A stretch of DNA of 64,000 nucleotides from Promethearchaeota archaeon (lineage in GTDB: Archaea > Asgardarchaeota > Lokiarchaeia > Sigyniarchaeales > SOKP01): positions 64,001 to 128,000 of the forward strand of contig JAHLWP010000005.1 of NCBI GenBank assembly GCA_019057865.1. The letters run 5' to 3'. The notes under the pieces were generated by a model. The model ran no database searches. It had not been told where the DNA came from and worked only from the letters and a program-made list of their open reading frames with translations. Shown here piece after piece: positions 1,618-6,730 of this stretch (position 1 is its first letter; every line of letters begins with the position of its first letter). Both the position numbers and the translations under genes were made by a program.

Positions 1618-3012
1618 CTATTCTTTGCTATCTTCTTCAACATCTGGAGTTTCTTGTTTATTATCAGAAGTTTTTGTTTCTGATGGAGCCTCAGATTGCG
1701 GAGTTGATTTTGATGCTACAGGTGTTCCACAGATAGGACATTTTGACCAACCTGGTCTCAAGCCGTAACCACATTTTGAGCATTCTTGCATATCCTCATC
1801 TGGTTTCCATTCTGGTATATCTAAACCACCTTGTCTTTTACTAGCAAATTCTTGTAATTCATCTTCTGTCCAAAACTCCATACCCTCAGGTAAACTGGAA
1901 CCTCTCTCTTGGACAAATTTGGTTATTTCTTCTTCCGACCAAATGGGCATATCAGGTTGAGTAGCCCTTCTTTTTTGTGCTTCTTCTGCTAACTCCTCAG
2001 CTGTCCATGCTTTAAGCTCTTGACCTCCCGGAGTTCTCACTACACCTGGTTGTTGAGGAGAAATTTGGCTAGGAGCCTGGGTACCCACAACACCTCCACT
2101 AATAGAAGGTGCATTACAACACTCAGCAGAAAACTTTAAAAGTGCTTCAAAACATTTTGAGAATTTATTTAGATCCTTCCCTTCATCAGTAACTAACATT
2201 AATGTAGTTTTATCAGCTGGCTGAGGAATAGCAATACCACACATGGCAATATCTGATTTAAGTCGCCCTGATTCTATACCAGAAGTGAGTTTTTCCATTG
2301 AGTTCGTTAAATCCTCATCTTTCATCAAAAAATCACAGATTGGATCTCCGTGTCTCTGGAAACTCTCATGGTATTTAGCTAGTTGAGTTCTTGTTATCGT
2401 TGAGTTAAGAGATCTAATAATAGCATCTACATACGGAAAAATTTGAGACTTAGGACCTTTTTGAGATCCTTCTAGCTCATAACCACCTAAATCAAGAGCT
2501 CCCGTAATAGGAGCGAATAGAGATGTTTCATTCTTCATTTTACCATAAATTATTGGTCTTGAAATAACACATTTGATTTCTCCGTAATAGGCAATAGCGT
2601 CATCAAAAAATTGAACTTTTCCATCATAGATAATTCGTGGAACACTTCGGAAAATTACATCAGCCCAAGGCATTTCTTTTACTGGAATTATTACATAACA
2701 TGTTTTATCAATTAAATCGCGCAATTTTTTAATGAAATCTTTTAACTCTTTTTTAATATTCTGATATTCTTCACTAATTAATTCTTCTTCTGCATTTTTT
2801 TCAAATTCTTTAAATTTTTCTTCATTTTTCTTGAGGTTTCCCCCAAATGATTTAACTTCTCCAATAGTATTACCTTGTAAAATAGATGTGGCATTTTCAA
2901 TAATTTTTTTCTGAAAATCGGATAACTCAGCCTCAGAACTTGAAATAAGGTAATCGTTGATATTGAATTGGATTTTATTAGCAAAGACTTCAAACAATTT
3001 CTTTTCTGACAA
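1618..3012 (-). CDS. Hypothetical protein with three W[TS]xEE[LI]-like helical repeats and a C-terminal zinc ribbon
   Basis: 464-aa ORF. Repeats WTAEEL, WSEEEI, WTEDEL, then WKPDED and CSKC-x9-CPIC, then an acidic S/T-rich tail. Confidence 0.75.
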   Translation of the reverse strand: MSEKKLFEVFANKIQFNINDYLISSSEAELSDFQKKIIENATSILQGNTIGEVKSFGGNLKKNEEKFKEFEKNAEEELISEEYQNIKKELKDFIKKLRDLIDKTCYVIIPVKEMPWADVIFRSVPRIIYDGKVQFFDDAIAYYGEIKCVISRPIIYGKMKNETSLFAPITGALDLGGYELEGSQKGPKSQIFPYVDAIIRSLNSTITRTQLAKYHESFQRHGDPICDFLMKDEDLTNSMEKLTSGIESGRLKSDIAMCGIAIPQPADKTTLMLVTDEGKDLNKFSKCFEALLKFSAECCNAPSISGGVVGTQAPSQISPQQPGVVRTPGGQELKAWTAEELAEEAQKRRATQPDMPIWSEEEITKFVQERGSSLPEGMEFWTEDELQEFASKRQGGLDIPEWKPDEDMQECSKCGYGLRPGWSKCPICGTPVASKSTPQSEAPSETKTSDNKQETPDVEEDSKE

Positions 3013-3221
3013 TTCTTTTACCTTTTTCCTTTGCTTTTTTAATTACTTAGATATTTATAAATATAGCAATGAAAGGTATATAAAAATTTAATTGAATCTA
3101 GTTTTCTACATGTTAAGTAAAATTGAATAAATTACTCATAAGTATTTAATAGAACGCTTTAATTATTAAAAAAATTAAAAATCCGAGACTAAATCGTTTC
3201 TTAATATTCAATCTTATATCT

Positions 3222-4430
3222 CTAAGGTAAGGGAAACATTAGATAACAAATTTTAGTCCAATTTAGTCCATGGTATTCAATTAAACCCATCATTTTATTA
3301 TACGCATCAACAGAATAATATTGACAAATGGGGGCAGGACTTCCATTTTCAATAACCGCAAAATGTACATGAGCAGATGAATTCACATTGTAAAACCTAG
3401 CAATGTCCCAACCTAATTGCACCCATTCGCCCAACTCAACATGCATCATACTTGCTTGTTGTTGATAATCTAAATAACTATCAGACCAAATCTCAAATAA
3501 ATATTCAGTTGCAATAGTTATACTGTAATTTATTACTAATCGTAAGGCATATCTATCTTGTCTTCCTGTCCCTCTATCTATAAATTCAATTTTGGTAACC
3601 TGACCTGGTGCAGCTGCTAACACTTTTGAACTATCTTTAAAATAGAAATCAAATCCTAAGTGTATTTCATTCCATGGGCAAAGAACTGTATTAGAATATC
3701 CCTTTACTACCTTTGAAATTGAACCATTAAATTCAAAACTAGCTACCATATAATCTAAGGGAGTATTTTCATCATAACATAAATAAGGCCAATCTGGATG
3801 ATAAATATGAACTAATCCCATCATCCTATTATAGGCTGCTGGAGAATAATATCTGTCAAGACGAGTGCGAACATCATCTTCTATTACATCAAAATGTATA
3901 TGAGCACCTTCTCCAATTTCCAAAAATAGCGCGATTTCTTGCCCAACCTCGACCCAATCTCCTATACTAACATTTATTAAGCTTTTTTGATTTTCATGAT
4001 CACTACTTTCATTAGTCCAAGGTTCAAAATTGTAATTTACATATACGCTATGATTAAATCTTATACTAACCTCAACCATATATCTATTTTCTGTAGCTTC
4101 ACCCCAATCTTTTTCTCGAATAATGCTTACTTGCCCAGGAGCTGCTGCAAGGACTTTTGAGTCGTTAATTAAAGCAAAATCAAACCCTTCATGAGCTCTT
4201 GCCCATGGGCAACTGTTTGTCGTAGACCATGCATCATTAACCGTATAAATATATGATTCGTTTTCAAAAATGACATCCATATAATCCAGATGACCCCAAT
4301 CATATCGTTCTCCAGGATCAAAAAAGTTCTCTTCCCAAGGTGGATTTTCCAGAATTCGAGGTACAATAATAATTCCTGCAATAATTACTACAGCAACTAT
4401 AATAAGTGAAATTATACCTTTTTTTTTCAT
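3222..4430 (-). CDS. Membrane-anchored/secreted protein with two tandem M23 (LytM-like) metallopeptidase domains
   Basis: N-terminal MKKK plus hydrophobic helix. Two copies of HxGxD (HEGFD, HLGFD), VLAAAPGQV, VxxG[DE]WVxxG and HxH (AHIHF, AHVHF), 177 aa apart. Confidence 0.85.
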   Translation of the reverse strand: MKKKGIISLIIVAVVIIAGIIIVPRILENPPWEENFFDPGERYDWGHLDYMDVIFENESYIYTVNDAWSTTNSCPWARAHEGFDFALINDSKVLAAAPGQVSIIREKDWGEATENRYMVEVSIRFNHSVYVNYNFEPWTNESSDHENQKSLINVSIGDWVEVGQEIALFLEIGEGAHIHFDVIEDDVRTRLDRYYSPAAYNRMMGLVHIYHPDWPYLCYDENTPLDYMVASFEFNGSISKVVKGYSNTVLCPWNEIHLGFDFYFKDSSKVLAAAPGQVTKIEFIDRGTGRQDRYALRLVINYSITIATEYLFEIWSDSYLDYQQQASMMHVELGEWVQLGWDIARFYNVNSSAHVHFAVIENGSPAPICQYYSVDAYNKMMGLIEYHGLNWTKICYLMFPLP

Positions 4431-5497: not shown

Positions 5498-6730
5498 ATG
5501 GAATGGGGCATAATTAATAAAAATAATTTTAAAGATAAAACTACATATGATATACCGATTAAGAGATGGGATCCTTTATCGACAGTAAGAATAAAATCTA
5601 AGGATTTTGGGGTTCGAAAAAAGCGTGAAAGGTATTATGGACATTATTCCTATTTAAGCCCTATTAGAGGGAAAAGACCTAAAGGTTATGATACCGTAGA
5701 AAAGAAAAGTGAATTTGAGCATTGTCCAAAAAAGATTTATGCAAGAGTAAAGGATGTGTTTATGGCAGTCACAGAAGGAAAACCTATTTATGATAATTGG
5801 GGTTATCAACTGGGTGATGGTTTCACTATAATTATAGCTGAAGATGATAAAAAGTGCGACAATCCTTTTTTAGATACTCCTCATCAAATTGAAAGAATTC
5901 CTAATTCTTGCAAAGCAATCACTTTAATTAATCGGTATCCTTCAATGGCTCGGATTATAGACCCTGAAATAGAAAAATGTATCACTGAAGAATTGCCTCC
6001 TCATCTAAAACTCGCGAGAGGGATAAACTTAGTAACTATTTCAAGAAAATTTTATCCTTCCTTATGTTTTAATTTAATTCCAGAAGAAATAATTGCTGGA
6101 ATTTTTTTATCTATGAAAACGGCAATCCTTTATTGCGTTCAAGAAGCAATAGAACGTGACTATTATGACATTCCAGTAAATCCTTTTTTTAATATAGGTA
6201 TGAAAGTAGGAGGCTCACAACCTCGCATACATAGTCAAGTATATATTGATTTGAATGGTGATGGTCATGGAAGTCGATTAGAAGGGTTTTTAAGGGCATT
6301 CAAAGAGATGGGTGAAAATTGTCATTTATGTGAAACGTCACATGGAGATACAGATCGTATTATTTTAAAAACTGAATTTTGGACTTTTTATACCACAGGA
6401 AGTCCAGTACGAAATTATCACATTCGATTTCATCCAAATGAGCACTTGAGAAGATTTTCACAATTGAAAATTAATCAAATAAATGATTTAGCAAAATCTT
6501 TAAAGATTATCTTTCAAGCAATTGACGATATAAAAATAGATAAAAATCGAAATCTTTTATTTAATAGTTGCCCTTTTGGTTATGATGCCGATTTTCATAT
6601 GTTTGGTGATATTATTCCACATGAAGTAATTGGCGGAGCAGAGATGGCAGATGATATGCGAGTTGCGAGAAAGTTGCCCCATATTGCTGCAGCTGAAATT
6701 AGAGAATCAATAATCAAGTATCTTAATTAA
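5498..6730 (+). CDS. GalT-like nucleotidyltransferase (HIT superfamily)
   Basis: NRYPS, FNIGMKVGGSQPRIHSQ (GxS-x2-HxHxQ variant), CHLC zinc pair and a C-terminal second HIT lobe. Confidence 0.75.
   Translation: MEWGIINKNNFKDKTTYDIPIKRWDPLSTVRIKSKDFGVRKKRERYYGHYSYLSPIRGKRPKGYDTVEKKSEFEHCPKKIYARVKDVFMAVTEGKPIYDNWGYQLGDGFTIIIAEDDKKCDNPFLDTPHQIERIPNSCKAITLINRYPSMARIIDPEIEKCITEELPPHLKLARGINLVTISRKFYPSLCFNLIPEEIIAGIFLSMKTAILYCVQEAIERDYYDIPVNPFFNIGMKVGGSQPRIHSQVYIDLNGDGHGSRLEGFLRAFKEMGENCHLCETSHGDTDRIILKTEFWTFYTTGSPVRNYHIRFHPNEHLRRFSQLKINQINDLAKSLKIIFQAIDDIKIDKNRNLLFNSCPFGYDADFHMFGDIIPHEVIGGAEMADDMRVARKLPHIAAAEIRESIIKYLN

What the first reader, a model, noticed from the sequence alone, without database searches (positions are those of the whole stretch)
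3222..4430. Surface-anchored tandem M23 peptidase in an archaeon, with an altered catalytic strand
Seen: a signal/anchor helix plus two 177-aa repeats. Each keeps the Zn ligands HxxxD and HxH and a Cys pair (CPW ... [LI]CY, possibly a disulfide). In both repeats the usual Y-x-H-L strand is replaced by Y-x-F-E-x-W (YNFEPW, YLFEIW). Known: M23 enzymes (LytM, lysostaphin) cleave peptidoglycan peptides, and Asgard archaea are not known to make peptidoglycan. Inference: an outward-facing enzyme for attacking or scavenging bacterial cell walls, or an M23 subfamily that uses Glu instead of His and acts on a different substrate.
Basis: partly seen in the sequence, partly recalled or inferred. Interest (0 to 1): 0.72.

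Follow-up and report, generated by a model that had tools for sequence, protein, structure and literature searches.

The report
Asgard tandem M23 peptidase, variant site
A Loki-type Asgard archaeon with no cell-wall (peptidoglycan) synthesis genes carries a membrane-tethered, outward-facing protein made of two zinc-peptidase domains of the bacterial wall-cutting M23 type, from a little-known subfamily in which one of the two usual catalytic histidines is gone.

Summary
Window 3222-4430 (-) encodes a 402-aa protein with an N-terminal membrane anchor and two 177-aa repeats (41% identical). Both repeats keep HxxxD and HxH and read Y-x-F-E where M23 enzymes read Y-x-H-L. M23 homology is solid: Pfam scores 51.6 bits against a cut-off of 28.7, and the single-domain model (pLDDT 96) matches Csd3, EnvC and LytM at Z 12-14.

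The altered strand defines a separate 175-aa subfamily, found in Asgard archaea (120 of 400 genomes searched), DPANN and Hadarchaeia archaea, and many uncultured bacteria. Across 199 domains, Glu136 is kept in 188 and Gln148 in 197, and no His is conserved at that position.

Glu136 tends to be lost together with the zinc ligands, as the catalytic His177 is. The independent cases are too few for a test, and I could not read model coordinates, so a catalytic Glu is inferred, not shown.

The host genome (99.7% complete) has no Mur ligase, PBP or SEDS gene. Domain 2 exists as deeply divergent allelic types reshuffled between close relatives.

Substrate and activity are untested. First readers of this scan had flagged the same protein type in other genomes. 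NCBI already labels its relatives M23.

The parts
3222..4430 (-). Whole gene, 402 aa (P0001): anchor, linker, M23-like domain 1, M23-like domain 2
   Evidence: ORF list and translation. Pfam PF01551 scores 51.6 bits against a cut-off of 28.7. 36 homologues, the closest named 'M23 family metallopeptidase [Promethearchaeota archaeon]'.
4347..4424 (-). N-terminal signal-anchor helix (residues 3-28; KKK, then a 19-residue hydrophobic core)
   Evidence: Kyte-Doolittle 19-mer maximum 3.3 at residues 5-23. AF2 helix over residues 3-28. Present in all 20 aligned orthologues. No A-x-A type cleavage site is visible (reading of the sequence).
4293..4346 (-). Linker between anchor and domain 1 (residues 29-46)
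   Evidence: pLDDT 56-63 and no secondary structure in the two-domain model.
3768..4292 (-). Domain 1 (residues 47-221), the conserved M23-like domain
   Evidence: Domain HMM 285.8 bits. Single-domain AF2 model has pLDDT 96.3 and pTM 0.91. VIA Z 14.2 to Csd3, 13.7 to the EnvC LytM domain, 12.2 to LytM. 75-84% identical among same-genus orthologues.
4179..4193 (-). HEGFD: H80 and D84, the first two zinc ligands of domain 1
   Evidence: H is kept in 147 and D in 147 of 154 domains. Aligned to the HxGxD motif of MepM and actinobacterial M23 enzymes by hhalign.
4017..4034 (-). YNFEPW (133-138): the strand that carries Y-x-H-L in canonical M23; Phe135 at the His position, Glu136 next to it
   Evidence: Across 199 domains: Y 196, F 186, E 188. 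AF2 strand over residues 129-136 at pLDDT above 90.
3981..4007 (-). Inserted helix (residues 142-150) holding invariant Gln148; absent from canonical M23
   Evidence: AF2 helix over residues 142-150. hhalign treats F135-N147 as a 13-residue insertion and pairs Q148 with the canonical His. Q is kept in 197 of 199 domains.
3894..3902 (-). HIH (177-179): His177 corresponds to the catalytic first His of HxH, His179 to the third zinc ligand
   Evidence: 22 of 154 domains in the subfamily read HxD instead of HxH.
3240..3764 (-). Domain 2 (residues 223-397), the membrane-distal and highly variable M23-like domain with a complete motif set
   Evidence: Domain HMM 247.4 bits. HLGFD at 3648-3662, YLFEIW at 3486-3503, HVH at 3363-3371, Q325 at 3456-3458. 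Only 40-45% identical to domain 2 of most same-genus orthologues, while domain 1 is 75-84%. Nucleotide identity to the closest relative falls to 57-62% over window 3200-3800.
4209..4211 (-). Cys74 (CPW). Partners: Cys218 at 3777-3779; in domain 2, Cys251 at 3678-3680 and Cys395 at 3246-3248
   Evidence: In the subfamily, Cys218 is present in 118 of 154 domains, and 106 of those also have Cys74 and/or Cys190. This suggests a disulfide with alternative partners; it is not shown.

Best explanation
The gene encodes a type-II membrane-anchored, outward-facing, probably N-glycosylated protein with two tandem zinc-binding M23 (LytM-fold) domains. It belongs to a distinct 175-aa M23 subfamily. That subfamily consists of the M23 core, a helix inserted after the 'catalytic' strand, and a C-terminal helix ending in Cys-Tyr.

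Shown: homology, fold, intact zinc motifs in both domains, absence of the second catalytic His, the subfamily-wide Y-x-F-E...Q signature, and absence of peptidoglycan synthesis genes in the host.

Inferred mechanism: each domain binds Zn through H80/D84/H179 (H257/D261/H356 in domain 2). His177 (His354) activates the water nucleophile. The role of the missing LytM-His260-type residue is taken by Glu136 (Glu313) as a general base.

Inferred function: an active endopeptidase working outside the cell on material the archaeon does not make itself. The most likely substrate is peptide cross-links or stems of bacterial peptidoglycan, or Gly-rich peptides. The purpose would be scavenging amino acids from bacterial walls and necromass, or acting on neighbouring bacteria.

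The distal domain 2 is kept functional: within one allelic type dN/dS is 0.1-0.25 and the active-site set is retained. It exists as old, deeply divergent alleles reshuffled by recombination, as expected for a part that meets variable outside targets.
For: - M23 homology: Pfam 51.6 bits against a cut-off of 28.7. hhalign of the subfamily against canonical M23 gives probability 99.2%, E 1.6e-19. All top Foldseek hits are M23. VIA Z 14.2-11.8 to Csd3, EnvC, ShyA and LytM over 122-130 residues.
- Zinc ligands are under strong constraint: intact in 185 of 199 distinct domains.
- Glu136 is kept in 188 of 199 domains. It is lost in 8 of the 14 domains with a broken metal site but in only 3 of the 185 intact ones. 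This is the behaviour of catalytic His177 (5 of 14 against 5 of 185). Gln148 and Phe135 behave differently: they persist in degenerate domains.
- Extracellular location: the anchor, plus 10 sequons against 2.4 expected, at 18-25 sequons per 1000 residues in orthologues against 0-8 in neighbouring cytoplasmic proteins. Bacterial members carry signal or lipoprotein-type peptides.
- The host has no Mur ligase, PBP or SEDS gene at 99.67% completeness, while the controls ring.
- The family is long established in Asgard archaea: 120 of 400 genomes and 34 of 85 genera. The Asgard sequences fall in one clade of 44 rows.
- Domain 2 is functional but polymorphic.
- Archaeal M23 peptidoglycan hydrolases that kill bacteria are an established precedent (PMC12352652).
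Against: - In LytM, lysostaphin, LasA and Ale-1, replacing either catalytic His by Ala abolishes activity (PMC4594094). The subfamily therefore lacks a residue that is essential elsewhere.
- LECT2 shows that an M23 fold can keep its zinc site, lose a catalytic His and be non-catalytic (PMC9662197, PMC13385698).
- In gapless register Glu136 sits one residue after the His position. In a regular strand it would point to the opposite face.
- hhalign instead pairs the His with Gln148.
- The link between Glu136 and the metal site rests on only 6 phylogenetically independent pairs, and the sign test is not significant.
- No LysM, SH3b or PG_binding module occurs here or in the ten multidomain relatives scanned. 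Those carry beta-propeller, PKD, fn3 or Big_2 domains.
- There is no conserved functional neighbourhood in bacteria.
- There are no activity, expression or zinc data.
Confidence: 0.55

Rival explanations
1. It is a non-catalytic zinc-containing binding module, as in LECT2. The domains keep zinc for structure or ligand binding, but without the second catalytic His they do not cut peptides. The protein would then be a surface adhesin or receptor, for example for partner cells, with a variable distal domain.
For: The His260-type residue is absent throughout the subfamily. Mutating that His inactivates canonical M23 enzymes (PMC4594094). LECT2 keeps H/D/H zinc ligands, lacks a catalytic His and has no peptidase activity (PMC9662197, PMC13385698); LECT2 appears among the structural matches at Z 10.2. 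Deeply divergent domain 2 alleles fit a recognition surface. Relatives carry binding-type accessory domains.
Against: The first His of HxH is not a zinc ligand and is needed only for catalysis, yet it is kept in 189 of 199 domains. Glu136 is as conserved as the ligands and tends to be lost together with them. Purely structural zinc sites do not usually preserve such second-shell residues over this range of taxa.
Confidence: 0.2
2. It is an active peptidase whose substrate is the archaeon's own envelope, for example maturing or remodelling surface or protrusion proteins. In that case it has nothing to do with bacteria.
For: The host has no peptidoglycan. The protein is tethered to its own membrane. 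The family looks old and largely vertically inherited in Asgard archaea. No peptidoglycan-binding module is present. M23A enzymes are known to cut proteins such as elastin (PMC9662197, reference list).
Against: Distribution is patchy even inside the genus (13 of 53 genomes) and among good genomes (26 of 90), which is odd for a housekeeping envelope enzyme. The same subfamily occurs in many bacteria with ordinary walls. The hypervariable distal domain points to outside targets.
Confidence: 0.15
3. Catalysis works without any replacement for the missing His. His177 alone activates water, while Glu136 and Gln148 merely staple the inserted helix to the strand.
For: Gln148 is invariant even in degenerate domains, so it is structural. 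Glu136 and Gln148 flank the insertion. In a regular strand Glu136 would face away from Tyr133 and Phe135 (inference from the strand at 129-136).
Against: Glu136 is lost in 8 of 14 metal-site-broken domains, whereas Gln148 is lost in none of them. Single-His variants of canonical M23 enzymes are inactive (PMC4594094).
Confidence: 0.1

Closest known systems
M23B peptidases LytM, lysostaphin, MepM, ShyA, Csd3 (Pfam PF01551)
   Same: Same fold (Z 11.8-14.2). Same HxxxD and HxH zinc and catalytic motifs in the same order. The same 'V..G..V..G..IG' segment before HxH. Extracytoplasmic location.
   Different: - The catalytic His of Y-x-H-L (LytM His260) is absent and reads Phe-Glu.
- A 13-residue insertion forms a helix with invariant Gln.
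- The domain has an extra C-terminal helix ending in Cys-Tyr, giving 175 aa against about 130.
- No peptidoglycan-binding or inhibitory domain is present.
- The host makes no peptidoglycan.
- The domain is duplicated in tandem.
Archaeal peptidoglycan hydrolases of Strock et al. 2025 (e.g. the M23 + PG_binding_1 protein Woldo of Halogranum salarium; PMC12352652)
   Same: An archaeon without murein encodes a secreted M23-type domain. Patchy distribution among relatives.
   Different: Those proteins were selected for carrying a catalytic domain plus a peptidoglycan-binding domain. Their M23 domains branch with Bacillota, and they come from Halobacteriales and Nanoarchaeia. The main text of that paper does not mention Asgard archaea. 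The protein here has no binding module, belongs to a different M23 clade, and lacks one catalytic His.
LECT2 (mammalian M23-fold protein)
   Same: M23 fold with the zinc ligands kept and a catalytic His missing (PMC9662197, PMC13385698). Structural match at Z 10.2.
   Different: [quoted passage not shown] Here the first His of HxH and a metal-site-linked Glu are conserved. No specific sequence relationship was seen.
Degenerate LytM factors EnvC, NlpD, DipM, SpoIIQ
   Same: Among the best structural matches (Z 12.7-13.7). They also lack a full catalytic set.
   Different: They have lost zinc ligands and act as protein-protein regulators of amidases in bacteria with walls. Here the ligands are intact in both domains, and the host has no such machinery.

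Membership tests
Peptidase family M23 (Pfam PF01551 / MEROPS M23) | Match to the family profile above the curated threshold | tested here: met
   51.6 bits against a cut-off of 28.7, three stretches. hhalign of the subfamily against canonical M23 gives probability 99.2%, E 1.6e-19.
Peptidase family M23 (Pfam PF01551 / MEROPS M23) | LytM fold | tested here: met
   Single-domain model pLDDT 96.3. VIA Z 14.2 (Csd3, rmsd 2.4 A over 122 residues) and 12.2 (LytM); all top rows are M23. Foldseek probability 1.00.
Peptidase family M23 (Pfam PF01551 / MEROPS M23) | H(x)nD motif (two zinc ligands), one of the two motifs that define the family (PMC9662197) | tested here: met
   HEGFD 80-84 and HLGFD 257-261, aligned to the canonical motif.
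Peptidase family M23 (Pfam PF01551 / MEROPS M23) | HxH motif (catalytic His plus the third zinc ligand) | tested here: met
   HIH 177-179 and HVH 354-356, aligned to the canonical HLH.
Peptidase family M23 (Pfam PF01551 / MEROPS M23) | Second catalytic His about 30 residues before HxH (LytM His260; essential in LytM, lysostaphin, LasA and Ale-1 according to PMC4594094) | tested here: not met
   The position reads Phe135 (Phe312 in domain 2). No His is conserved between the strand and HxH in 199 domains. His145 occurs only in Loki-type domain 1 (23 of 154).
Peptidase family M23 (Pfam PF01551 / MEROPS M23) | Oxyanion-stabilising Tyr (LytM Tyr204) | not testable with these tools
   It can come from different sequence positions (PMC4594094). 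Locating it needs coordinates, which were not available to me. Tyr133 (196 of 199) is a candidate only.
Peptidase family M23 (Pfam PF01551 / MEROPS M23) | Zinc binding and peptide-bond hydrolysis | not testable with these tools
   Needs purified protein.
Degenerate LytM regulators (EnvC/NlpD type) | Loss of zinc ligands or catalytic motifs | tested here: not met
   All three ligands are present in both domains and in 185 of 199 domains of the subfamily.
Modular archaeal peptidoglycan hydrolases (PMC12352652) | A catalytic domain combined with a peptidoglycan-binding domain | tested here: not met
   Pfam finds only PF01551 in the protein at max_evalue 10, apart from a sub-threshold LptE hit.
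LECT2-like non-catalytic M23 fold | Zinc site kept, catalytic His lost, groove blocked by an extra loop | tested here: inconclusive
   The first two features are met. Whether the groove is blocked cannot be read without coordinates.

The most novel reading that the evidence does not exclude
This is a previously undescribed branch of the M23/LAS metallopeptidases that swapped one of its two water-activating histidines for a glutamate general base, delivered with an inserted helix. The branch is widespread in uncultured anaerobic bacteria, episymbionts (CPR/DPANN) and Asgard archaea. In Loki-type archaea it became a tethered two-headed enzyme whose outer head is a recombining, polymorphic cassette. 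That would make it a molecular trace of direct, evolving contact between Asgard cells and bacterial walls or other external targets.
Probability: 0.3. Interest if true: 0.72.

Novelty: new variant of a known kind. Interest (0 to 1): 0.55.

Why it matters
Asgard archaea live in tight association with bacteria, and how they touch, feed on or fight their neighbours bears on models of how eukaryotes arose. A surface-tethered wall-cutting type enzyme in a wall-less archaeon is a concrete, clonable handle on that interface, and its variable outer domain hints at changing targets.

For enzymology, the subfamily is a natural experiment. M23 enzymes are thought to need two histidines to activate water, yet here one is missing in about 200 domains across both prokaryotic domains of life while the zinc site stays conserved. 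Either a Glu does the job, which would be a new mechanistic variant also relevant to engineering lysostaphin-like lysins, or a large group of 'M23 family metallopeptidase' annotations are not peptidases.

Tried and rejected
- **PDB by single sequence:** no hit at E up to 1. With the profile only weak local hits appeared (5kqb, E 1.5e-4). That local alignment to LytM starts after the strand and was not used to decide the register.
- **NCBIfam:** nothing near any cut-off, so no curated model covers this subfamily.
- **Phage records:** tblastn of domain 1 found nothing.
- **The search for related loci with the broad alignment A2:** Repeated with the narrower A3.
- **Model coordinates:** not exposed by any tool; /data holds only FASTA files. 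Distances from Glu136, Gln148 and Phe135 to the zinc site could therefore not be measured.
- **Phylogenetically independent test of Glu136 against metal-site integrity:** only 6 pairs, not significant. The raw Fisher p of 8.6e-9 overstates the case because relatives are not independent.
- **Recent gene conversion between the two repeats:** rejected. Overall nucleotide identity is 55%, and even identical peptide stretches are 73-80% identical in DNA.
- **Positive selection on domain 2:** not supported. dN/dS is 0.1-0.25 within allelic types. The 0.5-0.7 values between types come from saturated comparisons and are unreliable.
- **Gene neighbourhood:** the order RHH gene - M23 - zinc-ribbon gene is kept in 10 of 10 same-genus loci, but these are separate or divergent genes with no evident functional link. 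Two bacterial loci showed unrelated neighbours.
- **Promoter and terminator scan:** no better than shuffles.
- **LECT2 structure paper (PMC5016117):** not held; LECT2 facts are cited from two other papers.
Full report
**1. What is in the sequence**

Window 3222-4430 on the minus strand is one ORF of 402 aa, stored as P0001.

- The N-terminus is KKK followed by a 19-residue hydrophobic core. The Kyte-Doolittle mean is 3.3, and nothing else in the protein exceeds 0.98. It is modelled as a helix over residues 3-28.
- A low-confidence linker follows (residues 29-46).
- Two repeats then align without gaps at an offset of 177 residues, 41% identity, E 5e-48.
  - Repeat 1: HEGFD 80-84, YNFEPW 133-138, HIH 177-179.
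  - Repeat 2: HLGFD 257-261, YLFEIW 310-315, HVH 354-356.
  - Cysteines: CPW...LCY (Cys74, Cys218) and CPW...ICY (Cys251, Cys395).

**2. It is an M23 homologue by sequence and by fold**

- Pfam PF01551 scores 51.6 bits against a curated cut-off of 28.7.
- The two-domain AF2 model (pLDDT 83) hits only M23/LytM structures with Foldseek.
- A single-domain model built on a 40-sequence alignment reaches pLDDT 96.3 and pTM 0.91.
- That model gives VIA Z 14.2 to Csd3 (rmsd 2.4 A over 122 residues), 13.7 to the EnvC LytM domain, 13.0 to ShyA and 12.2 to LytM.
- About 45 of the 175 residues lie outside the shared core. These are a helix at residues 142-150 and a C-terminal helix at residues 197-210 plus a tail.
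- A profile of the family aligns to canonical M23 (E. coli MepM plus 29 actinobacterial M23 sequences) at probability 99.2%, E 1.6e-19. HxGxD, the Gly-rich 'V..G..V..G..IG' segment and HxH are all in register.

**3. The altered strand is real and defines a subfamily**

A 175-residue HMM built from the two repeats covers all 156 proteins returned by the two database searches over essentially its full length. The exhaustive search of 1.84 billion cluster representatives found only 123 proteins at E up to 1e-3.

Counts of conserved residues over 199 distinct full-length domains:

| Position | Domains that keep it (of 199) |
|---|---|
| Metal ligands all intact (H80, D84, H/D179) | 185 |
| Tyr133 | 196 |
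| Phe135 | 186 |
| Glu136 | 188 |
| Gln148 | 197 |
| His177 | 189 |

- No His is conserved anywhere between the strand and HxH. His145 occurs in only 23 of 154 domains, in Loki-type domain 1.
- In the tree the subfamily is separated from canonical M23 by a long, supported branch (SH-aLRT 99; quick LG+G4 tree).

**4. Which residue stands where LytM His260 stands is not settled**

- Counting from the conserved 'idH' position (F125 here), Tyr is at +8 and the catalytic His at +10 in MepM and the actinobacterial enzymes. Here +10 is Phe135 and +11 is Glu136.
- hhalign prefers to open a 13-residue gap (F135-N147) and pair the canonical His-Leu with Gln148-Leu/Lys. The distance to the next conserved Val is then identical, +6 in both.
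- AF2 models residues 129-136 as a strand and 142-150 as a helix, both at pLDDT above 90.
- No tool gave me coordinates, so I could not measure who faces the zinc.

There is indirect evidence from the degenerate domains.

- Among the 14 domains whose metal site is broken, Glu136 is lost in 8. Among the 185 intact ones it is lost in 3.
- Catalytic His177 shows the same pattern (5 of 14 against 5 of 185).
- Gln148 is lost in none of the 14 broken domains and Phe135 in one of them, which marks them as structural.
- The losses reduce to about 6 independent contrasts, and the sign test is not significant. This is a lead, not a proof.

Background from papers sets the stakes. In LytM both His260 and His291 sit 2.6-2.8 A from the transition-state oxygen, and Ala replacement of either abolishes activity in LytM, lysostaphin, LasA and Ale-1 (PMC4594094). 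LECT2 keeps the zinc site, lacks a catalytic His and is not a peptidase (PMC9662197, PMC13385698). The subfamily is therefore either a mechanistic variant or a non-enzyme.

**5. Who has it**

- The closest homologues are named 'M23 family metallopeptidase [Promethearchaeota archaeon]', Lokiarchaeota and Hermodarchaeota.
- The neighbouring gene is an Arf-family GTPase, in line with an Asgard host.
- In 400 genomes of the phylum, 120 have a match: 34 of 85 genera, 26 of 90 high-quality genomes, and 13 of 53 in the window's own genus. The distribution is wide but patchy.
- Most copies are single-domain proteins of about 220 aa, often as adjacent paralogues. Two-domain forms occur in this genus and in one other family of the same order. 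Three-domain forms of 569 aa also exist.
- All domain 1 sequences form one clade (98) and all domain 2 sequences another (99), so there was one duplication, and domain 2 has the longer branches.
- Outside Asgard archaea, the same signature occurs in these bacterial groups: Thermodesulfobacteriota, Chloroflexota, Marinimicrobia, Elusimicrobiota, Aminicenantes, Verrucomicrobiota, Planctomycetota, Patescibacteria and Saccharibacteria. It also occurs in Aenigmatarchaeota and Hadarchaeia archaea.
- The Asgard sequences sit in one 44-row clade (support 81), next to a mostly bacterial clade (96).
- Bacterial members have signal or lipoprotein-type N-termini.
- Multidomain members add beta-propeller, PKD, fn3 or Big_2 domains, never a LysM, SH3b or PG_binding module.

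**6. Location and host**

- The ectodomain has 10 N-x-S/T sequons against 2.4 +/- 1.4 in shuffles (0 of 5000 shuffles reach 10).
- Orthologues carry 18-25 sequons per 1000 residues, against 0-8 in the neighbouring cytoplasmic proteins. This fits an N-glycosylated extracellular protein.
- The host assembly (4.26 Mb, 99.67% complete) has no match to Mur ligase, PBP transpeptidase or SEDS profiles, all of which ring in the bacterial controls. This gene is its only M23 match.
- So whatever the protein cuts or binds, it is not the host's own murein.

**7. A polymorphic outer domain**

- The order RHH gene - M23 - zinc-ribbon gene is kept in all ten same-genus loci.
- Nucleotide identity to the closest relative, along the window:

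| Region | Identity |
|---|---|
| Zinc-ribbon and RHH genes | 94-97% |
| Anchor plus domain 1 | 81-86% |
| Window 3200-3800 (domain 2) | 57-62% |

- Protein identity to P0001 is 75-84% for domain 1 in all same-genus orthologues. For domain 2 it is 76-80% in two proteins and 40-45% in the rest.
- Other pairs are mosaic too. For example, in L010/L012 domain 1 has dS 0.39 and domain 2 has dS 2.5.
- Within one type, domain 2 is under purifying selection (dN/dS 0.1-0.25) and the catalytic set is retained.
- There is no recent conversion between the repeats.
- The simplest reading is that old, divergent domain 2 alleles are exchanged by recombination. This pattern is usual for parts that face variable partners, enemies or viruses.

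**8. Verdict**

The best-supported reading is a tethered, outward-facing, two-headed zinc endopeptidase. It belongs to a divergent M23 branch and acts on exogenous peptide material, most plausibly bacterial wall peptides.

- Homology, fold, motifs, topology, distribution and the host's lack of murein genes are shown.
- Activity, the catalytic role of Glu136, the disulfide and the substrate are inferred.
- Rivals are a LECT2-like non-catalytic binding protein, an enzyme for the archaeon's own surface, and a one-His mechanism with a purely structural Glu and Gln.

Relatives are already labelled M23 in public records, and archaeal peptidoglycan hydrolases are known (PMC12352652). That study required a wall-binding domain, and its main text does not mention Asgard archaea. 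My searches of the held papers for M23 together with Asgard or Lokiarchaeota terms turned up no description of these proteins; I did not search specifically for the His-less F-E...Q branch.

First readers of this scan had noted the same protein type in at least six other genomes, one of them also noting the missing His. No follow-up verdict existed for any of them.

Noticed in passing
window 3200-3800 (domain 2) compared with 3800-4430 and the flanks: Identity to the closest relative (L004) drops sharply to 57-62% nt over domain 2, against 81-86% over domain 1 and 94-97% in the flanking genes. Domain 2 occurs as at least two deeply divergent types within the genus and is reassorted relative to domain 1.
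   Followed up: yes
subfamily alignment, position equivalent to His179 (window 3894-3896): 22 of 154 domains read H-x-D instead of H-x-H, so the third zinc ligand would be Asp. This is unusual for M23 and concentrated in the mostly bacterial branch.
   Followed up: partly
L040 (Aenigmatarchaeota), L039/L038 (uncultured archaea), L042 (Patescibacteria), L057 (Saccharibacteria): DPANN archaeal and CPR bacterial copies form one tight clade (support 100). This suggests cross-domain transfer among episymbiotic lineages.
   Followed up: no
G020:C22:5903-7242; G363:C6:8902-10229; G331:C53:47-1403; G333:C4:365939-367423: Other Asgard genomes carry two single-domain paralogues side by side. This is the likely precursor state of the fused two- and three-domain proteins.
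   Followed up: no
window 5498-6730 (+): A 410-aa ORF with no Pfam hit at E up to 1e-3, conserved in same-genus genomes (60-90% identity). It sits between the RHH gene and a sugar-nucleotidyltransferase / GH57 branching-enzyme pair.
   Followed up: no
window 1618-3012 (-): A 464-aa protein with a C-terminal zinc ribbon lies immediately downstream of the M23 gene in all ten same-genus loci. It is 92% identical in the closest relative. No functional link to M23 is evident.
   Followed up: partly
control panel: PF01551 also rings in Sulfolobus acidocaldarius among the 14 control genomes; 10 of the 11 genomes that ring are over the cut-off, and which one is not is not stated. M23-like sequences in wall-less archaea are therefore not confined to Asgard archaea.
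   Followed up: no
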